A stretch of 64,000 bases of DNA from Candidatus Nomurabacteria bacterium GW2011_GWB1_43_19. GTDB lineage: Bacteria > Patescibacteriota > Minisyncoccia > Phycocordibacterales > UBA9973. The stretch spans positions 4,252 to 68,251 of the forward strand of contig LCGB01000003.1 of NCBI GenBank assembly GCA_000999465.1. The letters run 5' to 3'. Positions 3,148-6,743 of this stretch are shown piece by piece. The notes beneath the pieces are model-generated. The model saw only the letters and a program-made list of their open reading frames with translations. It was not told where the DNA came from and did not search any database. A program made the position numbers and the translations under genes. Each line of letters opens with the position of its first letter. The first letter of the stretch is position 1.

Positions 3148-3969
3148 TCATAAAGCAGACGCATCAAACCACTTTATCTCTTTATCTCTTTTGAACCAAG
3201 TCATCTGCCTTTTGGCGTATTTTAAGGTTTCTTTAATTACTTTTTCCGGCGTCGGATTATTATATTCAAAACCAAACTCTTTTAATCTTTTATCGGACAC
3301 TCCCGCGCGCTTAAGTTTTTCTATTTCTTTCAAGAGTCCGTCTTTAAACATTTTTTTAACTCTTTGCTCCACTTTATTTTTTAGTTTATCAGGAGGCAAA
3401 TACAGCCCGATCTTGATGAATTGATAGGGAAGCGGATTAGCTTTTGGGCGAGGAACCTCGCCGAGATATTTGGCTATTTCAATCGCCCGAACCAGCCGGA
3501 CCTTATTTTTGGTATCGATATTTTTTGCGCGTTCCGGATCCATTTTTTTAAAATACTCAAATAATGCTATCGCTGATTTTGAGTATAATTCTTTACGCAG
3601 TTTAATATTTGGCGGGACCTCAGGGAAAACTATTCCCTTAGTTATGGCGTCAATATAGAAACCCGTTCCTCCGCAGATAATTGGAAACTTTCCTCGTTTT
3701 TGAATCTCCGCTATAACGTAGATTGCTTGCTTTTGATATTCAGCGACTGAAAACTTGGATTTTGGGTTAGCCACATCCAACAAATGGTGCAGCACACCTC
3801 GCATTTCTTTCTTGTCGATTTTACCCGTCCCTATGTTAAGTCCTTTATAAACCTGCCTGGAATCGGCGGAAATTATTTCACCTTTTAGTTTTTTAGCAAT
3901 ACTGACAGCCAAAGTGCTTTTGCCGGTTGCGGTTTGTCCCAGGATAACAATAATTTTCGGCTTAGACAT
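3148..3969 (-). CDS. miaA: tRNA dimethylallyltransferase
   Basis: P-loop ILGQTATGKST plus ISADSRQVYKGLNIGTGK, characteristic of MiaA. Confidence 0.9.
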   Translation of the reverse strand: MSKPKIIVILGQTATGKSTLAVSIAKKLKGEIISADSRQVYKGLNIGTGKIDKKEMRGVLHHLLDVANPKSKFSVAEYQKQAIYVIAEIQKRGKFPIICGGTGFYIDAITKGIVFPEVPPNIKLRKELYSKSAIALFEYFKKMDPERAKNIDTKNKVRLVRAIEIAKYLGEVPRPKANPLPYQFIKIGLYLPPDKLKNKVEQRVKKMFKDGLLKEIEKLKRAGVSDKRLKEFGFEYNNPTPEKVIKETLKYAKRQMTWFKRDKEIKWFDASAL

Positions 3970-5500
3970 ATGTTCCTTTTATTATTTTAATGTCCGCGCC
4001 AATAGAATTCAGCCTTTCCGCAATTTCTTCATAGCCGCGGTTTATCATATAAACATTGCGGAGAATGGAAATTCCGTTCGCTCCCAACATGGAAATGAGT
4101 ATAACCATGGACGGGCGCAGGGCGGGAGGGCAGACAACTTGCGCCGGTTTTAGCATTGTTCCGCCGTTTATATAAAGACGGTGGGGATCAGCAAGCGTTA
4201 TATCCGCTCCCAAGCGATTTAATTCGGTTAAATATATAGCGCGATTCTCATAAACCCAGTCGTGAATCATCGTTTGACCTTTTGCGCGTATTGCAATCGG
4301 AACAAAAAACGGCAAGTTATCAATGTTTATTCCCGGATAGGGGTTGGAGTGCAATTTATCGTGAAGAGCTTTCAGCTTGCTTGGGAGTATTTCCACATCC
4401 GCCAGTTTTGTCCGGCCGTTGAATGAGTTATATATTTTCGATATTTTGTATTTTAAATTCATTCTTTTTAATTTTTCAAGTTCCAGAGACATAAAATCTA
4501 TCGGCACACGGGTGACTTTAAGTCGGGAGTCTGTGACGATACAAGCGGAAATAAACATCATCGATTCTATCGGGTCTTCGCTGTTCCAATATTCGATATT
4601 TTTATTGATTTCTTTTATCCCGTGGACGGTCAGGTTGGCGGTGCCGATGCCGTCAATTTTTACTCCCAGCGCTTCCAGAAAAAAACATACTTCTTGTACC
4701 ATGTAATTGGCGCTGGCAAAACTTATTTTGGTAGTTCCTTCAATCAAGGCGGCGGCCGTGAGGACATTTTCACAGGCGGTATCTCCCGATTCATACATCA
4801 CTACATCTTTCGGCTTCAATTTTTTTGCGGTTATTTCGTAGTTTTTGACGGTCGTTTTTATTTTTACTCCAAATCGCTCAAGCGCGTAAATATGCGCGGC
4901 TATAGTGCGTTTTCCTAAGTGGCAACCATGCGCATGCGGGATAGAAAAGGAAGATAATTTGTGGATAAGAGGACCCATTAGCATAACAACGGAACGTGTT
5001 TTTAGGGCCGATTCTATATTAATATTTTCCAGGTTAAATTTGGCGGGTGGAGTTATTGTCAGTGTGTTTTGGTTAAGCCACTTTACCGCGACTCCGATAC
5101 TTTCCAAGATTTCAATTACCCGAAAAACTTCTTCGATCTTGGCGATGCCGTGCAGGGTCGTCGTCCCGCTGTTTATAAGCGAGGCGCACAGGAGACCGAC
5201 GGAGCCGTTTTTTGAAAAGTTGGTTTTAATCGTTCCGCTTAATTTCTTGCCGCCGTTCACTTGGAAATCAATGGAATCATTTATGGAAATAATCTGGTGG
5301 TCGAGAACATTGCTGATCTTTAAGAGAAGCTCGGTTGTAAAATTTTGTTCGCCTTTTTCCATACGGGGGATGGAGCTCTGTGATGTGTTGAGCGCTTTAG
5401 CGAACTCTGCCTGTGTCATCCCGCGATGTTCACGGAGTTCCCGGATAAAATACCCTATTTTTTCCTGCTCGGTTTGCACCGTTTCTTTTGTTTTAGTCAT
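3962..5500 (-). CDS. murA: UDP-N-acetylglucosamine 1-carboxyvinyltransferase with N-terminal HTH (XRE-type) domain fusion
   Basis: Residues ~15-70 (IRELREHRGMTQAEFAKALNTSQSSIPRMEKGEQNFTTELLLKISNVL) look like HTH_XRE. The rest is the MurA/EPT fold (GGKKLSGTIKT..., C-terminal NRGYEEIAERLNSIGADIKI). Single uninterrupted 512-aa ORF. Confidence 0.8.
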   Translation of the reverse strand: MTKTKETVQTEQEKIGYFIRELREHRGMTQAEFAKALNTSQSSIPRMEKGEQNFTTELLLKISNVLDHQIISINDSIDFQVNGGKKLSGTIKTNFSKNGSVGLLCASLINSGTTTLHGIAKIEEVFRVIEILESIGVAVKWLNQNTLTITPPAKFNLENINIESALKTRSVVMLMGPLIHKLSSFSIPHAHGCHLGKRTIAAHIYALERFGVKIKTTVKNYEITAKKLKPKDVVMYESGDTACENVLTAAALIEGTTKISFASANYMVQEVCFFLEALGVKIDGIGTANLTVHGIKEINKNIEYWNSEDPIESMMFISACIVTDSRLKVTRVPIDFMSLELEKLKRMNLKYKISKIYNSFNGRTKLADVEILPSKLKALHDKLHSNPYPGINIDNLPFFVPIAIRAKGQTMIHDWVYENRAIYLTELNRLGADITLADPHRLYINGGTMLKPAQVVCPPALRPSMVILISMLGANGISILRNVYMINRGYEEIAERLNSIGADIKIIKGTYV

Positions 5501-5513
5501 ATGTCAAATAGTA

Positions 5514-5531
5514 TATCTCATATATGAGATA
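5514..5531. promoter_or_regulatory. Perfect 18-nt palindrome TATCTCATATATGAGATA in the promoter of the HTH-murA fusion gene
   Basis: Located 14 nt upstream of the start codon (minus strand). It overlaps a TATACT -10-like box. A candidate operator for the fused XRE-type HTH. Confidence 0.5.
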
Positions 5532-5591
5532 ATGCAAGCATAGTGTATGATAAATTGATTTCCGCCTGCAATTAAAGTATTATTTGGACAT

Positions 5592-5678
5592 GCCCAGGTG
5601 GCGGAATTGGTAGACGCGATAGACTCAAAATCTATTGATGGCAACATCATGAGAGTTCGATTCTCTCCCTGGGCACCA
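5592..5678 (+). tRNA. tRNA-Leu (anticodon CAA), encoded CCA
   Basis: GCCCAGGTGGCGGAATTGGTAGACGCG...GACTCAAAATC... has a long variable arm. T-arm GGTTCGATTCT; 3' end GGGCACCA. Confidence 0.85.
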
Positions 5679-5756: not shown

Positions 5757-6743
5757 ATGTCCAACTTATATTCCAATTCAATTTTTTGGATTGATACCGA
5801 TAAAATTAAACCGAATCCGCTCCAGCCGAGACGGGATTTTGACGAAGCGCGTTTACAGGACCTGGCTGATTCCATAAAGCAATACGGGGTTCTGCAGCCG
5901 TTGACCGTTTCTCGAATGGAAATGGAAAAAGAAAATGGTGGGCTGGTAACTGAGTATGAACTAATTGCCGGAGAGCGCCGGCTACGGGCTGCCAAGTTGG
6001 CACAAGTATCGCAGGTGCCCGTCATAATTCGCATCGGAGACACGGCCATTATGAAACTTGAACTGGCAATTATTGAGAATCTGCAACGCGAGGACTTAAA
6101 TGCGGTGGACCGCGCCAGAGCTTTTTTCCGGCTGGTCGGTGAATTTAAATTCACCCATAATGAAATTGCAAAAAAAATGGGCCGCAGCCGGGAATATGTT
6201 TCCAATTCTCTGCGTATTTTGACTCTGCCGGAAGAAATTTTAAACGGTCTTTCCGAAGGCAAAATTACCGAAGGGCATACTCGTCCGCTTCTTATGCTGG
6301 CAGACCATCCGGAAGAACAGTTGGTTTTATTCAAGGAAATTTTATACAAGAAAATTACCGTGCGCGAAGCCGAAAGACTGGCAAGAAAAATAGCTTACGA
6401 CCGGGTCCGGAAGAAAGAATTTATGCCCGACCCGGAAATAACCGAATTAGAAGAAGAGTTTCAGGAAAAACTCGGCACCCGGGTGCACATAGACAGAAAG
6501 GAACTGGGTGGACAGATTAAAATTGATTTCTTTTCCACAGAAGACCTGCGAACCATTTTGGATTTAATTCATAAAAGTGAATCCGAGAAAAAACCGGAAC
6601 AAATGCTTGAAAATTTTATCGCCAAGAATAATTCAAAAGAAGAAATTCCGACACTTGAAGAGACACCGGTGGATGACAGGACAAAAGAAGATATAAACAA
6701 GGACGACGCCGATTTATACAACATTTCCAATTTCAGCGTATAA
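5757..6743 (+). CDS. parB: Chromosome partitioning protein ParB/Spo0J
   Basis: ParB box LQPLTV...GERRLRAAKLA and an HTH region. No parA is adjacent. Confidence 0.85.
   Translation: MSNLYSNSIFWIDTDKIKPNPLQPRRDFDEARLQDLADSIKQYGVLQPLTVSRMEMEKENGGLVTEYELIAGERRLRAAKLAQVSQVPVIIRIGDTAIMKLELAIIENLQREDLNAVDRARAFFRLVGEFKFTHNEIAKKMGRSREYVSNSLRILTLPEEILNGLSEGKITEGHTRPLLMLADHPEEQLVLFKEILYKKITVREAERLARKIAYDRVRKKEFMPDPEITELEEEFQEKLGTRVHIDRKELGGQIKIDFFSTEDLRTILDLIHKSESEKKPEQMLENFIAKNNSKEEIPTLEETPVDDRTKEDINKDDADLYNISNFSV

What the first reader, a model, noticed from the sequence alone, without database searches (positions are those of the whole stretch)
3962..5531. MurA fused to an N-terminal XRE-type HTH domain, with a perfect 18-nt palindrome in its own promoter
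The first committed enzyme of peptidoglycan synthesis carries an extra 70-aa N-terminal domain of about the same length as a helix-turn-helix (XRE/Cro-like) fold. It is continuous with the EPT catalytic domain. Immediately upstream of the start codon lies TATCTCATATATGAGATA (5514-5531), overlapping a -10-like box. That is the arrangement expected for an autoregulatory operator. Such a fusion would couple a cell-wall enzyme to DNA binding.
Basis: partly seen in the sequence, partly recalled or inferred. Interest (0 to 1): 0.6.

Follow-up and report, generated by a model that had tools for sequence, protein, structure and literature searches.

The report
MurA enzyme fused to its own repressor
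The first enzyme of bacterial cell-wall precursor synthesis (MurA) here carries a DNA-binding domain whose conserved palindromic target sits inside the gene's own promoter, so the enzyme very probably switches off its own transcription; this arrangement is widespread in the tiny-genome Patescibacteria and appears undescribed.

Summary
ORF 3962-5500(-) encodes 512 aa: an XRE-type HTH (Pfam HTH_3, E 4e-13), an approximately 10-residue flexible linker, and a full-length MurA with every catalytic residue checked intact. The 18-nt palindrome at 5514-5531 is unique in the 64 kb.

The palindrome fills the 16-nt spacer between TTGCAT (-35-like) and TATACT (-10-like). The ATG lies 9 nt after the -10, so the transcript is probably leaderless or nearly so.

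Comparative evidence supports autoregulation:
- All 64 HTH-fused orthologue loci with readable upstream DNA carry the same site.
- None of 15 close orthologues that lost the HTH carry it. These share 80-87% identity and the same relA-parB-murA-miaA synteny.
- The same operator and recognition helix (TSQSAV.R.E.G.QN) persist down to 31% protein identity.
- They also persist in a 69%-GC Nonomuraea locus.
- They persist in catalytically dead HTH-EPT paralogues wedged between murA-murB and ddl/Mur-ligase operons.

Best reading: a bifunctional "trigger enzyme" that is both MurA and its own autorepressor. DNA binding, the direction of regulation and any ligand control remain untested. Seven literature searches found no description. 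I rate it a new variant of a known kind, of moderately high interest.

The parts
3962..5500 (-). HTH-murA coding sequence (512 aa, stop included)
   Evidence: ORF list and sequence. Pfam HTH_3 plus EPSP_synthase. NCBIfam MurA subfamily score above its cut-off.
5300..5470 (-). XRE-type helix-turn-helix domain (residues approximately 11-67)
   Evidence: Pfam HTH_3 at residues 19-67, E 4.4e-13. The AlphaFold model has helices at 11-25, 30-36, 43-48 and 56-66. The nearest solved relatives are DNA-binding XRE repressors such as PezA, ImmR, ClgR, C.AhdI, HipB, SinR and 434.
5357..5386 (-). Predicted recognition helix and following turn, TSQSSIPRME (residues 39-48)
   Evidence: T39, R46 and E48 are invariant, and Q41 and S42 are at least 90% conserved, across 138 fused proteins. 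The motif TSQSAV.R.E.G.QN is kept in Nonomuraea and in the pseudoenzyme members.
5270..5302 (-). Linker between the HTH and the enzyme (residues 67-77)
   Evidence: This segment has low model confidence. The 61-80 blocks average pLDDT 75 and 65, and residues 71-74 are below 50. It lies between two confidently folded domains.
3977..5269 (-). MurA (enolpyruvyl transferase) domain, residues 78-508
   Evidence: End-to-end alignment to solved MurA proteins. Foldseek target-normalised TM-score 0.86-0.94 to MurA structures. K97, N98, C193, R198 and D309, together with the equivalents of R91, R371 and R397, are all present.
4922..4924 (-). Codon of the catalytic cysteine (Cys193, equivalent to E. coli Cys115)
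   Evidence: TGC is read directly from the sequence. It aligns with the GGC of the MurA catalytic loop.
5514..5531 (.). Operator: perfect palindrome TATCTCATATATGAGATA
   Evidence: Unique in the window. Present at 64 of 64 fused orthologue loci and 0 of 15 unfused loci. Conserved in distant family members.
5532..5537 (-). -35-like hexamer TTGCAT, abutting the operator
   Evidence: Read from the sequence. TTGC is conserved at a fixed distance in 63 aligned sites. It matches only 3 of 6 positions of TTGACA, so the consensus scan did not call it.
5510..5515 (-). -10-like hexamer TATACT, whose first two bases are the last two of the palindrome
   Evidence: Read from the sequence. The family consensus is TAtAaT at the same position, with a spacer of 16-17 nt.
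5501..5509 (-). 9 nt between the -10 and the ATG, with no Shine-Dalgarno sequence: a leaderless or near-leaderless start
   Evidence: Read from the sequence. In 41 of 63 orthologous loci the ATG lies 10-13 nt after the palindrome, which is 6-9 nt after the -10.
3148..3969 (-). miaA, overlapping the murA stop by 8 nt and probably co-transcribed from the regulated promoter
   Evidence: ORF coordinates. miaA lies downstream on the same strand in 25 fused and all 15 unfused loci.

Best explanation
The gene encodes a bifunctional "trigger enzyme". The C-terminal 435 residues are the cell's working MurA (UDP-GlcNAc 1-carboxyvinyltransferase). The N-terminal XRE-type helix-turn-helix, tethered by a flexible linker of about 10 residues, binds as a dimer to the 18-bp palindrome.

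That palindrome occupies the whole spacer between the -35 (TTGCAT) and -10 (TATACT) elements of the gene's own promoter. Occupancy would exclude RNA polymerase, so MurA represses transcription of the murA(-miaA) operon and holds its own level constant.

What is shown:
- the two-domain architecture and the intact catalytic residues;
- the geometry of the site within the promoter;
- the strict evolutionary coupling of the HTH and the site.

What is inferred:
- DNA binding itself;
- dimerisation;
- repression rather than activation;
- the leaderless transcript.

What is speculative: that substrate or product binding (UDP-GlcNAc, PEP, UDP-MurNAc), which opens and closes the MurA fold, modulates DNA binding.
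For: Architecture:
- HTH_3 plus a full EPT domain.
- MurA subfamily score above its cut-off.
- Model pLDDT 91, with a four-helix HTH, a low-confidence linker and a MurA fold at TM 0.9.
- The equivalents of K22, N23, R91, C115, R120, D305, R371 and R397 are all kept.

It is the housekeeping locus:
- The 15 unfused orthologues share 80-87% identity and the same relA-parB-murA-miaA synteny.
- There is no second murA in the 64-kb window.

Coupling of operator and HTH:
- 64 of 64 fused loci carry the site. In 60 it is within 200 nt of the start. In 4 it lies behind an inserted gene.
- 0 of 15 unfused loci carry it.
- There are no extra copies in 545 kb of orthologous loci.
- The unfused genes are nested among the fused ones, and at least 3 have a fused nearest relative. 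This indicates repeated joint loss of the HTH and the site.

Selection on the HTH:
- Mean identity is 76% in the HTH against 78% in the enzyme domain.
- The recognition helix is near-invariant across 138 proteins.

Deep conservation of the pair:
- The same ATMTCATATRTGAKAT core sits at the promoter in members with 31-50% identity (L081, L083, L086, L088, L209).
- It also sits there in a 69%-GC Nonomuraea locus (L082).

Position:
- The site fills the 16-17-nt spacer and overlaps the -10.
- It is the only site in the window.

Family context:
- Catalytically dead HTH-EPT members sit between the murA-murB and ddl/Mur-ligase operons, with the operator in the 60-nt shared intergenic region.
Against: - No binding, footprint or expression data exist. 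Everything here is comparative.
- MurA enzymes are generally monomers (my own knowledge), so the dimer needed for a palindrome is unexplained. The model gives no fixed orientation between the HTH and the enzyme.
- The -35 matches only 3 of 6 positions of TTGACA, and the consensus scan did not call a minus-strand promoter.
- The protein scores below the strict TIGR01072 equivalog cut-off, 294 against 392.7.
- The rest of the genome could not be searched, so neither a second murA nor further operator copies can be ruled out.
- The exact 18-mer also occurs in many metagenome contigs with no HTH-murA nearby.
- Repeated loss of the HTH shows that the regulatory function is dispensable.
Confidence: 0.75

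Rival explanations
1. The fused protein is mainly a transcription factor. Its MurA-like domain serves only as a ligand sensor, and a separate canonical MurA elsewhere in the genome does the enzymatic work.
For: Relatives of exactly this kind exist. P0129, P0132, P0135, P0141, P0142, P0183 and P0208 have lost C115, R120, R91 and R397. P0129 and P0132 sit next to a separate MurA that passes the NCBIfam cut-off. The window protein scores below the TIGR01072 equivalog cut-off. Only 64 kb of the genome is visible.
Against: All eight catalytic or substrate-binding residues checked are intact, and the NF006873 cut-off is passed. Orthologues that lost the HTH keep the enzyme domain at 80-87% identity in the same locus. 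That pattern is hard to explain if the domain were only a sensor for the HTH. No second murA lies in the window. 113 of the 118 new hits to P0129 (P0290-P0407), all fused, keep the full catalytic set.
Confidence: 0.1
2. The HTH binds the palindrome but activates transcription, or acts as a dual regulator, rather than repressing.
For: The -35 is imperfect (TTGCAT), so the promoter could need assistance. Some regulators, such as the MerR type, act from the spacer (my own knowledge).
Against: The spacer is 16-17 nt, which is the optimal length and not the over-long 19-20 nt of MerR-type promoters. The site also overlaps the -10. The closest solved homologues are repressors or autorepressors. Orthologues without the HTH and site evidently still express murA.
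Confidence: 0.08
3. The HTH is a protein-protein interaction module, as in RodZ where an XRE-type HTH binds MreB, or is otherwise not DNA-binding. The palindrome would then be a promoter feature or the site of another factor.
For: RodZ shows that an XRE-fold domain can serve cell-wall machinery without binding DNA (my own knowledge; RodZ biology in PMC9804626). In one distant fused locus mreB is the divergent neighbour.
Against: HTH and palindrome co-occur and are lost together without exception. The palindrome persists in a 69%-GC genome and across 31-50% protein identity together with an invariant recognition helix. No RodZ structure appears among PDB sequence matches at E<=0.1, whereas many DNA-binding repressors do. 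Pfam and the structure model show nothing between the HTH and the enzyme domain beyond the short linker, so there is no room for a RodZ-like membrane segment.
Confidence: 0.04
4. The palindrome acts at the RNA level, as a hairpin affecting stability, termination or translation, rather than as a DNA operator.
For: It can form a 7-bp A/U-rich hairpin.
Against: The fold is unremarkable, at -6.9 kcal/mol with z = -1.0, and 32 of 200 shuffles fold at least as well. The palindrome lies upstream of and within the -10, so it would not be transcribed from this promoter. No Rfam family matches there.
Confidence: 0.02
5. The fusion is an assembly or frameshift artefact joining two separate genes.
For: None was found.
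Against: The same continuous frame appears in all 120 listed protein clusters and in 65 of the 80 best-matching GTDB species-representative genome loci, from many independent assemblies. These include isolate genomes of Nonomuraea.
Confidence: 0.01

Closest known systems
Trifunctional PutA (proline utilisation A)
   Same: A metabolic enzyme with an N-terminal DNA-binding domain that acts as an autogenous repressor of its own regulon (abstract of PMC5293562). This matches the logic proposed here: enzyme and its own repressor in one polypeptide.
   Different: PutA uses a ribbon-helix-helix domain, not an XRE HTH. Its switch is redox- and membrane-driven, and its pathway is proline catabolism. 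No switch is known for HTH-MurA.
BirA (biotin protein ligase and bio repressor) and NadR (my own knowledge)
   Same: An N-terminal HTH is fused to an enzyme of the pathway it regulates. In BirA the reaction intermediate acts as corepressor by promoting dimerisation on a palindromic operator. That is a plausible template for ligand control here.
   Different: BirA has a winged-helix HTH. These are different enzymes and pathways. For HTH-MurA, neither a corepressor nor dimerisation has been shown.
Canonical MurA (for example E. coli 1UAE, C. jejuni 5UJS)
   Same: The fold is the same (TM about 0.9) and so is the catalytic set: K22, N23, R91, C115, R120, D305, R371 and R397.
   Different: Canonical MurA has no DNA-binding domain. 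Sequence identity is only 23-28%. The known transcriptional control of murA is by separate regulators such as CodY or VxrAB (PMC13204101).
Small XRE-family autorepressors (restriction-modification controller C proteins such as C.AhdI, PezA and HipB antitoxins, ImmR, SinR, 434 repressor)
   Same: The HTH class is the same and these are the closest solved sequences. They are dimers that bind palindromic operators overlapping their own promoters (my own knowledge).
   Different: Those are stand-alone proteins of 65-160 aa, or are paired with a toxin or nuclease. Here the HTH is covalently joined to an essential biosynthetic enzyme, and no toxin gene is adjacent in the window.
XRE-HTH fused to a shikimate-kinase-like domain (NCBIfam PRK08154, 'anaerobic benzoate catabolism transcriptional regulator')
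   Same: An XRE-type HTH sits at the N-terminus of an enzyme-family domain. The window's N-terminus matches the HTH part of this model (E 5e-7).
   Different: The partner domain and pathway differ. This is only an architectural analogy, and the score is far below that family's cut-off (29 against 204).

Membership tests
MurA (UDP-N-acetylglucosamine 1-carboxyvinyltransferase, EPT fold) | Full-length two-domain enolpyruvyl-transferase fold | tested here: met
   Pfam EPSP_synthase matches profile positions 1-417 of 417. The alignment to solved MurA runs end to end. Foldseek target-normalised TM-score is 0.86-0.94 to MurA structures.
MurA (UDP-N-acetylglucosamine 1-carboxyvinyltransferase, EPT fold) | Catalytic loop Cys115 (or Asp) plus K22, R120, D305 and R397 | tested here: met
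   The window pattern is KNRCRDRR, identical to C. jejuni MurA. This corresponds to K97, N98, C193, R198 and D309.
MurA (UDP-N-acetylglucosamine 1-carboxyvinyltransferase, EPT fold) | Score above curated family cut-offs | tested here: inconclusive
   The NF006873 subfamily model scores 306.1 against 297, which passes. The TIGR01072 equivalog scores 294.2 against 392.7, which fails. The unfused orthologue L035 behaves the same way.
MurA (UDP-N-acetylglucosamine 1-carboxyvinyltransferase, EPT fold) | Enolpyruvyl transfer from PEP to UDP-GlcNAc | not testable with these tools
   This needs an enzyme assay or genetic complementation.
XRE / Cro-C1 helix-turn-helix DNA-binding domain (Pfam HTH_3) | Sequence match above the gathering score | tested here: met
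   HTH_3 scores 49.5 bits against 23. HTH_31 scores 37 against 27.
XRE / Cro-C1 helix-turn-helix DNA-binding domain (Pfam HTH_3) | Compact helical fold containing a helix-turn-helix | tested here: met
   The model has helices at 11-25, 30-36, 43-48 and 56-66, with pLDDT of about 80-92.
XRE / Cro-C1 helix-turn-helix DNA-binding domain (Pfam HTH_3) | Sequence-specific binding of a (pseudo)palindromic operator as a dimer | not testable with these tools
   Only comparative support is available: 64 of 64 against 0 of 15 co-occurrence and deep conservation of the pair.
Trigger enzymes (enzyme that is also a transcription factor for its own pathway) | Catalytic domain and DNA-binding domain in one active polypeptide | tested here: inconclusive
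   Both domains are present and look functional by sequence. Neither activity has been measured.
Trigger enzymes (enzyme that is also a transcription factor for its own pathway) | Regulatory target lies in the enzyme's own pathway or gene | tested here: met
   The only site in the window lies in the gene's own promoter. In the pseudoenzyme relatives the site lies between murA-murB and ddl/Mur-ligase operons.
Trigger enzymes (enzyme that is also a transcription factor for its own pathway) | DNA binding modulated by substrate or product | not testable with these tools
   This needs gel shifts with and without UDP-GlcNAc, PEP, UDP-MurNAc and fosfomycin.
RodZ-like HTH (protein-interaction module of the cell-wall elongasome) | HTH followed by a transmembrane segment and a periplasmic domain, and binding to MreB | tested here: not met
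   After a 10-residue linker the HTH is followed directly by the cytoplasmic MurA fold. No RodZ appears among PDB sequence matches.
Type II toxin-antitoxin antitoxin (PezA/HipB/HigA type) | Small HTH antitoxin encoded beside its toxin | tested here: not met
   The HTH is fused to MurA, and the neighbouring genes are miaA and tRNA-Leu/parB. Antitoxin models score far below their cut-offs.

The most novel reading that the evidence does not exclude
HTH-EPT proteins form a previously unrecognised family of metabolite-sensing transcription factors built on the MurA fold.

Binding of UDP-GlcNAc or PEP, or of the feedback ligand UDP-MurNAc, drives the open-to-closed movement of the enzyme domain. That movement sets the dimer geometry of the tethered HTHs on a conserved palindrome. 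The result would be a one-protein feedback loop that matches transcription of peptidoglycan-precursor genes to precursor pools in much of the Patescibacteria.

The catalytically dead members would be the end point of this trajectory. They would be pure UDP-sugar sensors controlling divergent murA-murB and ddl/Mur-ligase operons. The Nonomuraea copy would be a horizontally transferred, experimentally tractable representative.
Probability: 0.3. Interest if true: 0.8.

Novelty: new variant of a known kind. Interest (0 to 1): 0.62.

Why it matters
**A gap in what is known about murA regulation.** How the first committed step of cell-wall synthesis is regulated is known only for a few model bacteria. 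There, separate regulators or proteolysis do the job (PMC13204101). Nothing is known for Patescibacteria, a very large group of uncultivated bacteria with few regulators.

**A candidate mechanism.** An enzyme that represses its own gene through a fused HTH would be a minimal homeostatic circuit for an essential pathway. It would also be the first case of MurA acting on DNA.

**Practical consequences.**
- Some proteins automatically named "MurA" in these genomes lack the catalytic residues and are probably regulators. This affects metabolic reconstructions.
- The operator is short and highly conserved, and the fused gene occurs in cultivable Nonomuraea. The hypothesis can therefore be tested directly.
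- A ligand-responsive HTH-MurA would be a ready-made sensor for UDP-sugar or fosfomycin-target occupancy.

Tried and rejected
- **RNA-structure reading of the palindrome.** The fold is -6.9 kcal/mol with z = -1.0, there is no Rfam hit, and the palindrome lies upstream of the likely start site. Rejected.
- **Consensus promoter scan.** It found nothing on the minus strand because TTGCAT matches only 3 of 6 positions of TTGACA. I based the promoter assignment on the conserved TTGC...TAtAaT frame across 63 loci instead.
- **Other targets of the HTH.** No second site exists in the 64-kb window or in 545 kb of orthologous loci.
- **Metagenome scan for the exact 18-mer.**
  - 17 loci had a fused HTH-murA within 27-201 nt.
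  - 7 had a stand-alone related HTH.
  - About 56 had neither.
  - These contigs cannot be tied to genomes and the chance expectation is unknown, so the scan was inconclusive about extra targets.
- **Second murA.** None lies in the window.
- **Toxin-antitoxin reading.** PezA is the closest natural solved HTH (E 3e-4), but many other XRE repressors score similarly. No toxin gene is adjacent in the window. Rejected for this locus.
- **RodZ-like reading.** Rejected.
- **Literature.** Seven full-text searches found no description of an HTH-MurA fusion. This is absence within that library only.
- **Operator and helix co-variation.** One Doudnabacteria locus has a different palindrome and TTQS instead of TSQS. 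A single case is too few to draw a conclusion.
Full report
**1. What is in the window**

On the minus strand an ORF runs from the ATG at 5500 to a stop at 3962-3964 and encodes 512 aa. An in-frame TGA lies two codons upstream of the ATG, so the frame cannot start earlier.

- Pfam finds an XRE-type helix-turn-helix: HTH_3 at residues 19-67, E 4.4e-13, 49.5 bits against a gathering score of 23.
- Pfam also finds a complete enolpyruvyl-transferase domain: EPSP_synthase at residues 81-497, matching profile positions 1-417 of 417.
- NCBIfam places the enzyme part in the MurA subfamily model NF006873, with 306 bits against a cut-off of 297.
- It scores below the stricter TIGR01072 equivalog, with 294 against 392.7.

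The palindrome TATCTCATATATGAGATA lies exactly at 5514-5531. It is the only match in 64 kb even with three mismatches, where 0.01 is expected by chance. A weight matrix built from orthologous sites scores it at 30.6 bits. The next best position scores 3.0, and shuffled sequence reaches a mean maximum of 5.5.

**2. Anatomy of the promoter region**

Read on the coding strand, the region is TTGCAT (5537-5532), then the 18-nt palindrome (5531-5514), whose last two bases begin TATACT (5515-5510). Nine further bases follow (ATTTGACAT), and then the ATG.

The palindrome therefore fills the whole 16-nt spacer of a sigma-70-like promoter and overlaps its -10. There is no Shine-Dalgarno sequence and almost no room for a leader.

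The consensus scanner did not call this promoter, because TTGCAT matches TTGACA at only 3 of 6 positions. The assignment rests on conservation instead (see section 4).

miaA starts 8 nt before the murA stop, so it is probably co-transcribed. A tRNA-Leu gene (5592-5678, plus strand) and parB lie divergently upstream.

**3. The protein**

The enzyme domain aligns end to end with solved MurA proteins. In a multiple alignment it keeps the equivalents of E. coli K22, N23, R91, C115, R120, D305, R371 and R397. In the window protein these include K97, N98, C193, R198 and D309.

An AlphaFold model built on 138 fused homologues is confident, with mean pLDDT 91 and pTM 0.83.

- The HTH has four helices, at 11-25, 30-36, 43-48 and 56-66.
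- A low-confidence linker spans about 67-77.
- A MurA fold follows.

Foldseek matches the model to MurA structures with target-normalised TM-scores of 0.86-0.94.

The closest solved relatives of the HTH are all DNA-binding XRE proteins: a designed binder (DBP48), PezA, ImmR, ClgR, C.AhdI, HipB, SinR and 434 repressor.

**4. Is the fusion real, and is the palindrome linked to it?**

The 120 best hits in the 5.8-billion-protein collection are all about 500-520 aa. All carry both domains and share 80-100% identity with the window protein. They come from Nomurabacteria, Paceibacteria and other Patescibacteria.

Among the 80 best loci from GTDB species-representative genomes, 65 are fused. In the other 15 the match starts only at query residues 56-77. 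Reading the frames confirms that these 15 have a short N-terminus and no HTH.

I searched every locus for TATMTCATATATGAKATA, allowing up to 2 mismatches.

- Of 66 fused loci (window included), two have less than 30 nt of upstream sequence and cannot be judged.
- The other 64 all carry one site.
- In 60 of these the site is within 200 nt of the start.
- In 4 it is 580-1300 nt upstream, behind an inserted gene that itself starts 10-11 nt (three loci) or about 23 nt (L072) after the site.
- None of the 15 unfused loci has a site anywhere within 3 kb on either side.
- No locus has an extra full site away from its murA promoter, across 545 kb in total.

The aligned sites give the consensus TTGCaATTATaTCATATATGAgATAtAaT. 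TTGC and TAnAnT sit at fixed positions, and the spacer is 16-17 nt. In 41 of 63 loci the ATG lies 10-13 nt after the palindrome.

The unfused genes are positional orthologues. All 15 have parB upstream on the opposite strand and miaA downstream on the same strand, as the fused genes of the same clade do.

In a neighbour-joining tree of the enzyme domain the unfused genes are scattered within the fused clade. Four of them (L035, L065, L068, L070) are closer to a fused gene than to any other unfused one. The HTH and the operator have therefore been lost together at least three times.

Within the fused genes the HTH is as conserved as the enzyme, at 76% against 78% mean identity.

**5. The wider family**

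A search of 1.84 billion representatives at 50% identity shows fused proteins down to 31% identity, interleaved with unfused MurA. Three findings follow.

*(a) The fusion with an intact enzyme is widespread.* A second search seeded with a distant member returned 120 fused proteins. Those with a source name are labelled Liptonbacteria, Taylorbacteria, Colwellbacteria, Doudnabacteria and others. Of the 118 new hits (P0290-P0407), all fused, 113 keep the full catalytic pattern.

*(b) Some lineages have lost the catalytic residues.* P0129, P0132, P0135, P0141, P0142, P0183 and P0208 lack C115 and R91, and most also lack R120 and R397. Most keep D305 and R371. P0129 falls below the MurA family cut-off, at 235 against 297. 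The contexts are telling.

- P0129 is transcribed divergently from a separate 438-aa MurA, which scores 325 bits and passes the cut-off, followed by MurB. P0129 itself is followed by Ddl and a Mur ligase.
- P0132 lies between Mur-ligase genes, with a separate MurA nearby.

*(c) The operator travels with the HTH.*

| Locus | Protein | Sequence | Position |
|---|---|---|---|
| L083 | P0129 | TTGACAATATATCATATATGATATTAAAT | in the 60-nt intergenic region, 12 nt from the HTH-EPT start and 32 nt from the divergent murA start |
| L086 | P0132 | ATATCATATATGATAT | abuts the start codon |
| L088 | P0183 (31% identity) | ATATCAGATATGATAT | 5 nt before the ATG |
| L081 | P0135 | TTGCAATATATCATATAGGATATATAAT | precedes a NUDIX / NTP-transferase / HTH-EPT operon |
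| L209 | P0403 | ATATCACATATGATAT | 7 nt before the ATG |

Most strikingly, P0121 belongs to a cluster of 246 proteins from cultured Nonomuraea species (Actinomycetota). Its locus is 69% G+C, yet it carries GCATCTCATATGTGAGATATG 13 nt before the start.

The recognition-helix motif TSQSAV.R.E.G.QN is shared by all of these. One Doudnabacteria locus (L208) has a different near-palindrome, ATATAGCATATACGCTATAT, together with TTQS in the helix. This hints at co-variation, but it is a single case.

**6. Most likely mechanism**

A DNA-binding domain and a palindrome that are always gained, kept and lost together are best explained as a repressor and its operator. That holds here across phyla and across a 27-percentage-point difference in G+C content.

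The position of the site fits repression by exclusion of RNA polymerase. It fills an optimally spaced -35/-10 spacer and overlaps the -10. This is how the closest solved homologues act (my own knowledge of the C-protein, antitoxin and phage-repressor families listed).

The enzyme domain is intact, and it is retained at 80-87% identity even where the HTH is gone. It is therefore almost certainly the working MurA.

The protein thus fits the "trigger enzyme" class. Trifunctional PutA, an enzyme with an N-terminal DNA-binding domain that represses its own regulon, is the clearest precedent (PMC5293562). BirA and NadR are others (my own knowledge).

The catalytically dead relatives sit between peptidoglycan-precursor operons and carry the same operator. 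This suggests that the MurA fold can serve as the sensing part of a regulator, which makes ligand-modulated DNA binding plausible for the active enzymes too. PDB entries show MurA with tightly bound UDP-MurNAc and a PEP adduct (for example 3SU9 and 3SWD), so a feedback ligand exists in principle.

These last steps are inference. Dimerisation, the direction of regulation and any ligand effect are untested.

**7. Rivals**

- *A pure regulator with another murA elsewhere.* This cannot be fully excluded because only 64 kb is visible. The intact catalytic set, the positional orthology with HTH-less genes and the absence of a second copy in the window argue against it.
- *Activation rather than repression.* This is possible but disfavoured by the geometry.
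- *A RodZ-like protein-interaction role.* This is disfavoured by the perfect coupling to a DNA site and by the homologue list.
- *An RNA hairpin role.* Not supported.
- *An assembly artefact.* Excluded.

**8. Novelty**

Public databases hold these proteins under automatic names such as "UDP-N-acetylglucosamine 1-carboxyvinyltransferase", "helix-turn-helix domain-containing protein" and "Transcriptional regulator, XRE family".

Seven full-text searches found no paper that describes the fusion, its operator or the pseudoenzyme relatives. A 2026 review of peptidoglycan regulation lists only separate regulators acting on murA, namely CodY and VxrAB.

Enzymes fused to DNA-binding domains are a known kind, so I rate this a new variant of a known kind. 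It is not a new category.

**9. Limits**

- All functional claims are comparative.
- The exact 18-mer also occurs in metagenome contigs without HTH-murA: about 56 of 80 returned loci. Seven of the 80 carry a stand-alone HTH with the same recognition helix. The site is therefore not exclusive to the fusion, and extra genomic targets cannot be ruled out.
- The tree is a simple neighbour-joining tree without support values.

Noticed in passing
L083:2624-7082 (also L084, L085) and L086:95-6201: HTH-EPT proteins that have lost the MurA catalytic residues (P0129, P0132) sit between a separate intact murA(-murB) and ddl/Mur-ligase genes. The family operator lies in the shared intergenic region. They are probably dedicated regulators that are mis-annotated as MurA.
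   Followed up: partly
L082:3972-5530 (Nonomuraea sp. NEAU-A123, JAHFZZ010000002.1): A catalytically intact HTH-MurA, 50% identical to the window protein, occurs in cultured Nonomuraea (a cluster of 246 proteins). It lies next to a phage-type integrase in 69%-GC DNA, yet keeps the AT-rich operator ATCTCATATGTGAGAT. This suggests horizontal transfer between Patescibacteria and Actinomycetota and offers a cultivable test system.
   Followed up: partly
L039:2870-2990 and L049:2855-2995: An insert of about 125 nt with terminal inverted repeats (CTCCCGTTAGAGAT ... ATCTCTAACGGGA in L039) lies between the operator and the HTH-murA start codon. The ATG appears to be duplicated at both ends, which is reminiscent of a miniature transposable element. 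L028, L044, L057 and L060 also have inserts of 110-150 nt at this point.
   Followed up: no
L029:2292-2867, L040:710-1288, L024:2421-2981, L072:1718-2230, L081:1735-2996: In a few genomes another gene has been inserted between the operator/promoter and HTH-murA, and so comes under the same operator. In L029 and L040 it is an AAA_33 P-loop kinase with a weak, sub-threshold Zeta_toxin match. Zeta toxins phosphorylate UDP-GlcNAc and thereby poison MurA (PMC3062530). L024 has a histidine phosphatase. L072 and L081 have NUDIX hydrolases, and L081 also has a sugar nucleotidyltransferase.
   Followed up: partly
L133:5865-6176 (site at 6150-6167); also L090, L103, L109, L102, L119, L167: Stand-alone small XRE proteins with the same recognition helix (TSQSAVARMESGKQN in L133) lie next to the same 18-mer, with no MurA domain nearby. 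They may represent the kind of free-standing autorepressor from which the fusion arose.
   Followed up: partly
L208:2960-2990: A Doudnabacteria HTH-MurA (P0395) has a different near-palindrome, ATATAGCATATACGCTATAT, at the same promoter position, and TTQS instead of TSQS at the start of the recognition helix. This may be operator/helix co-variation, but it is a single case.
   Followed up: partly
window 3962-3969: The murA stop and the miaA start overlap by 8 nt (ATGTCTAA). The tRNA-modification gene miaA is therefore probably co-transcribed, and perhaps translationally coupled, with the cell-wall enzyme. The murA-miaA order is kept in 40 of the 80 related loci.
   Followed up: partly
window 5592-5678 compared with L007, L069 and the unfused loci: tRNA-Leu(CAA) is divergent from murA in the window but co-directional and immediately upstream of murA in L007, L069 and most unfused orthologues. 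In the unfused genes the ATG follows the tRNA 3' end by only a few to about a dozen nt, as if the promoter, operator and HTH had been removed by a single deletion.
   Followed up: no
L126 (three copies), L121 and L168 (two copies each), and about 50 other loci: The exact 18-mer also occurs in metagenome contigs without any HTH-murA or related HTH, sometimes in several copies in very AT-rich DNA (21-27% GC). These may be chance matches, repeats or operators of unrelated regulators. They were not examined.
   Followed up: no
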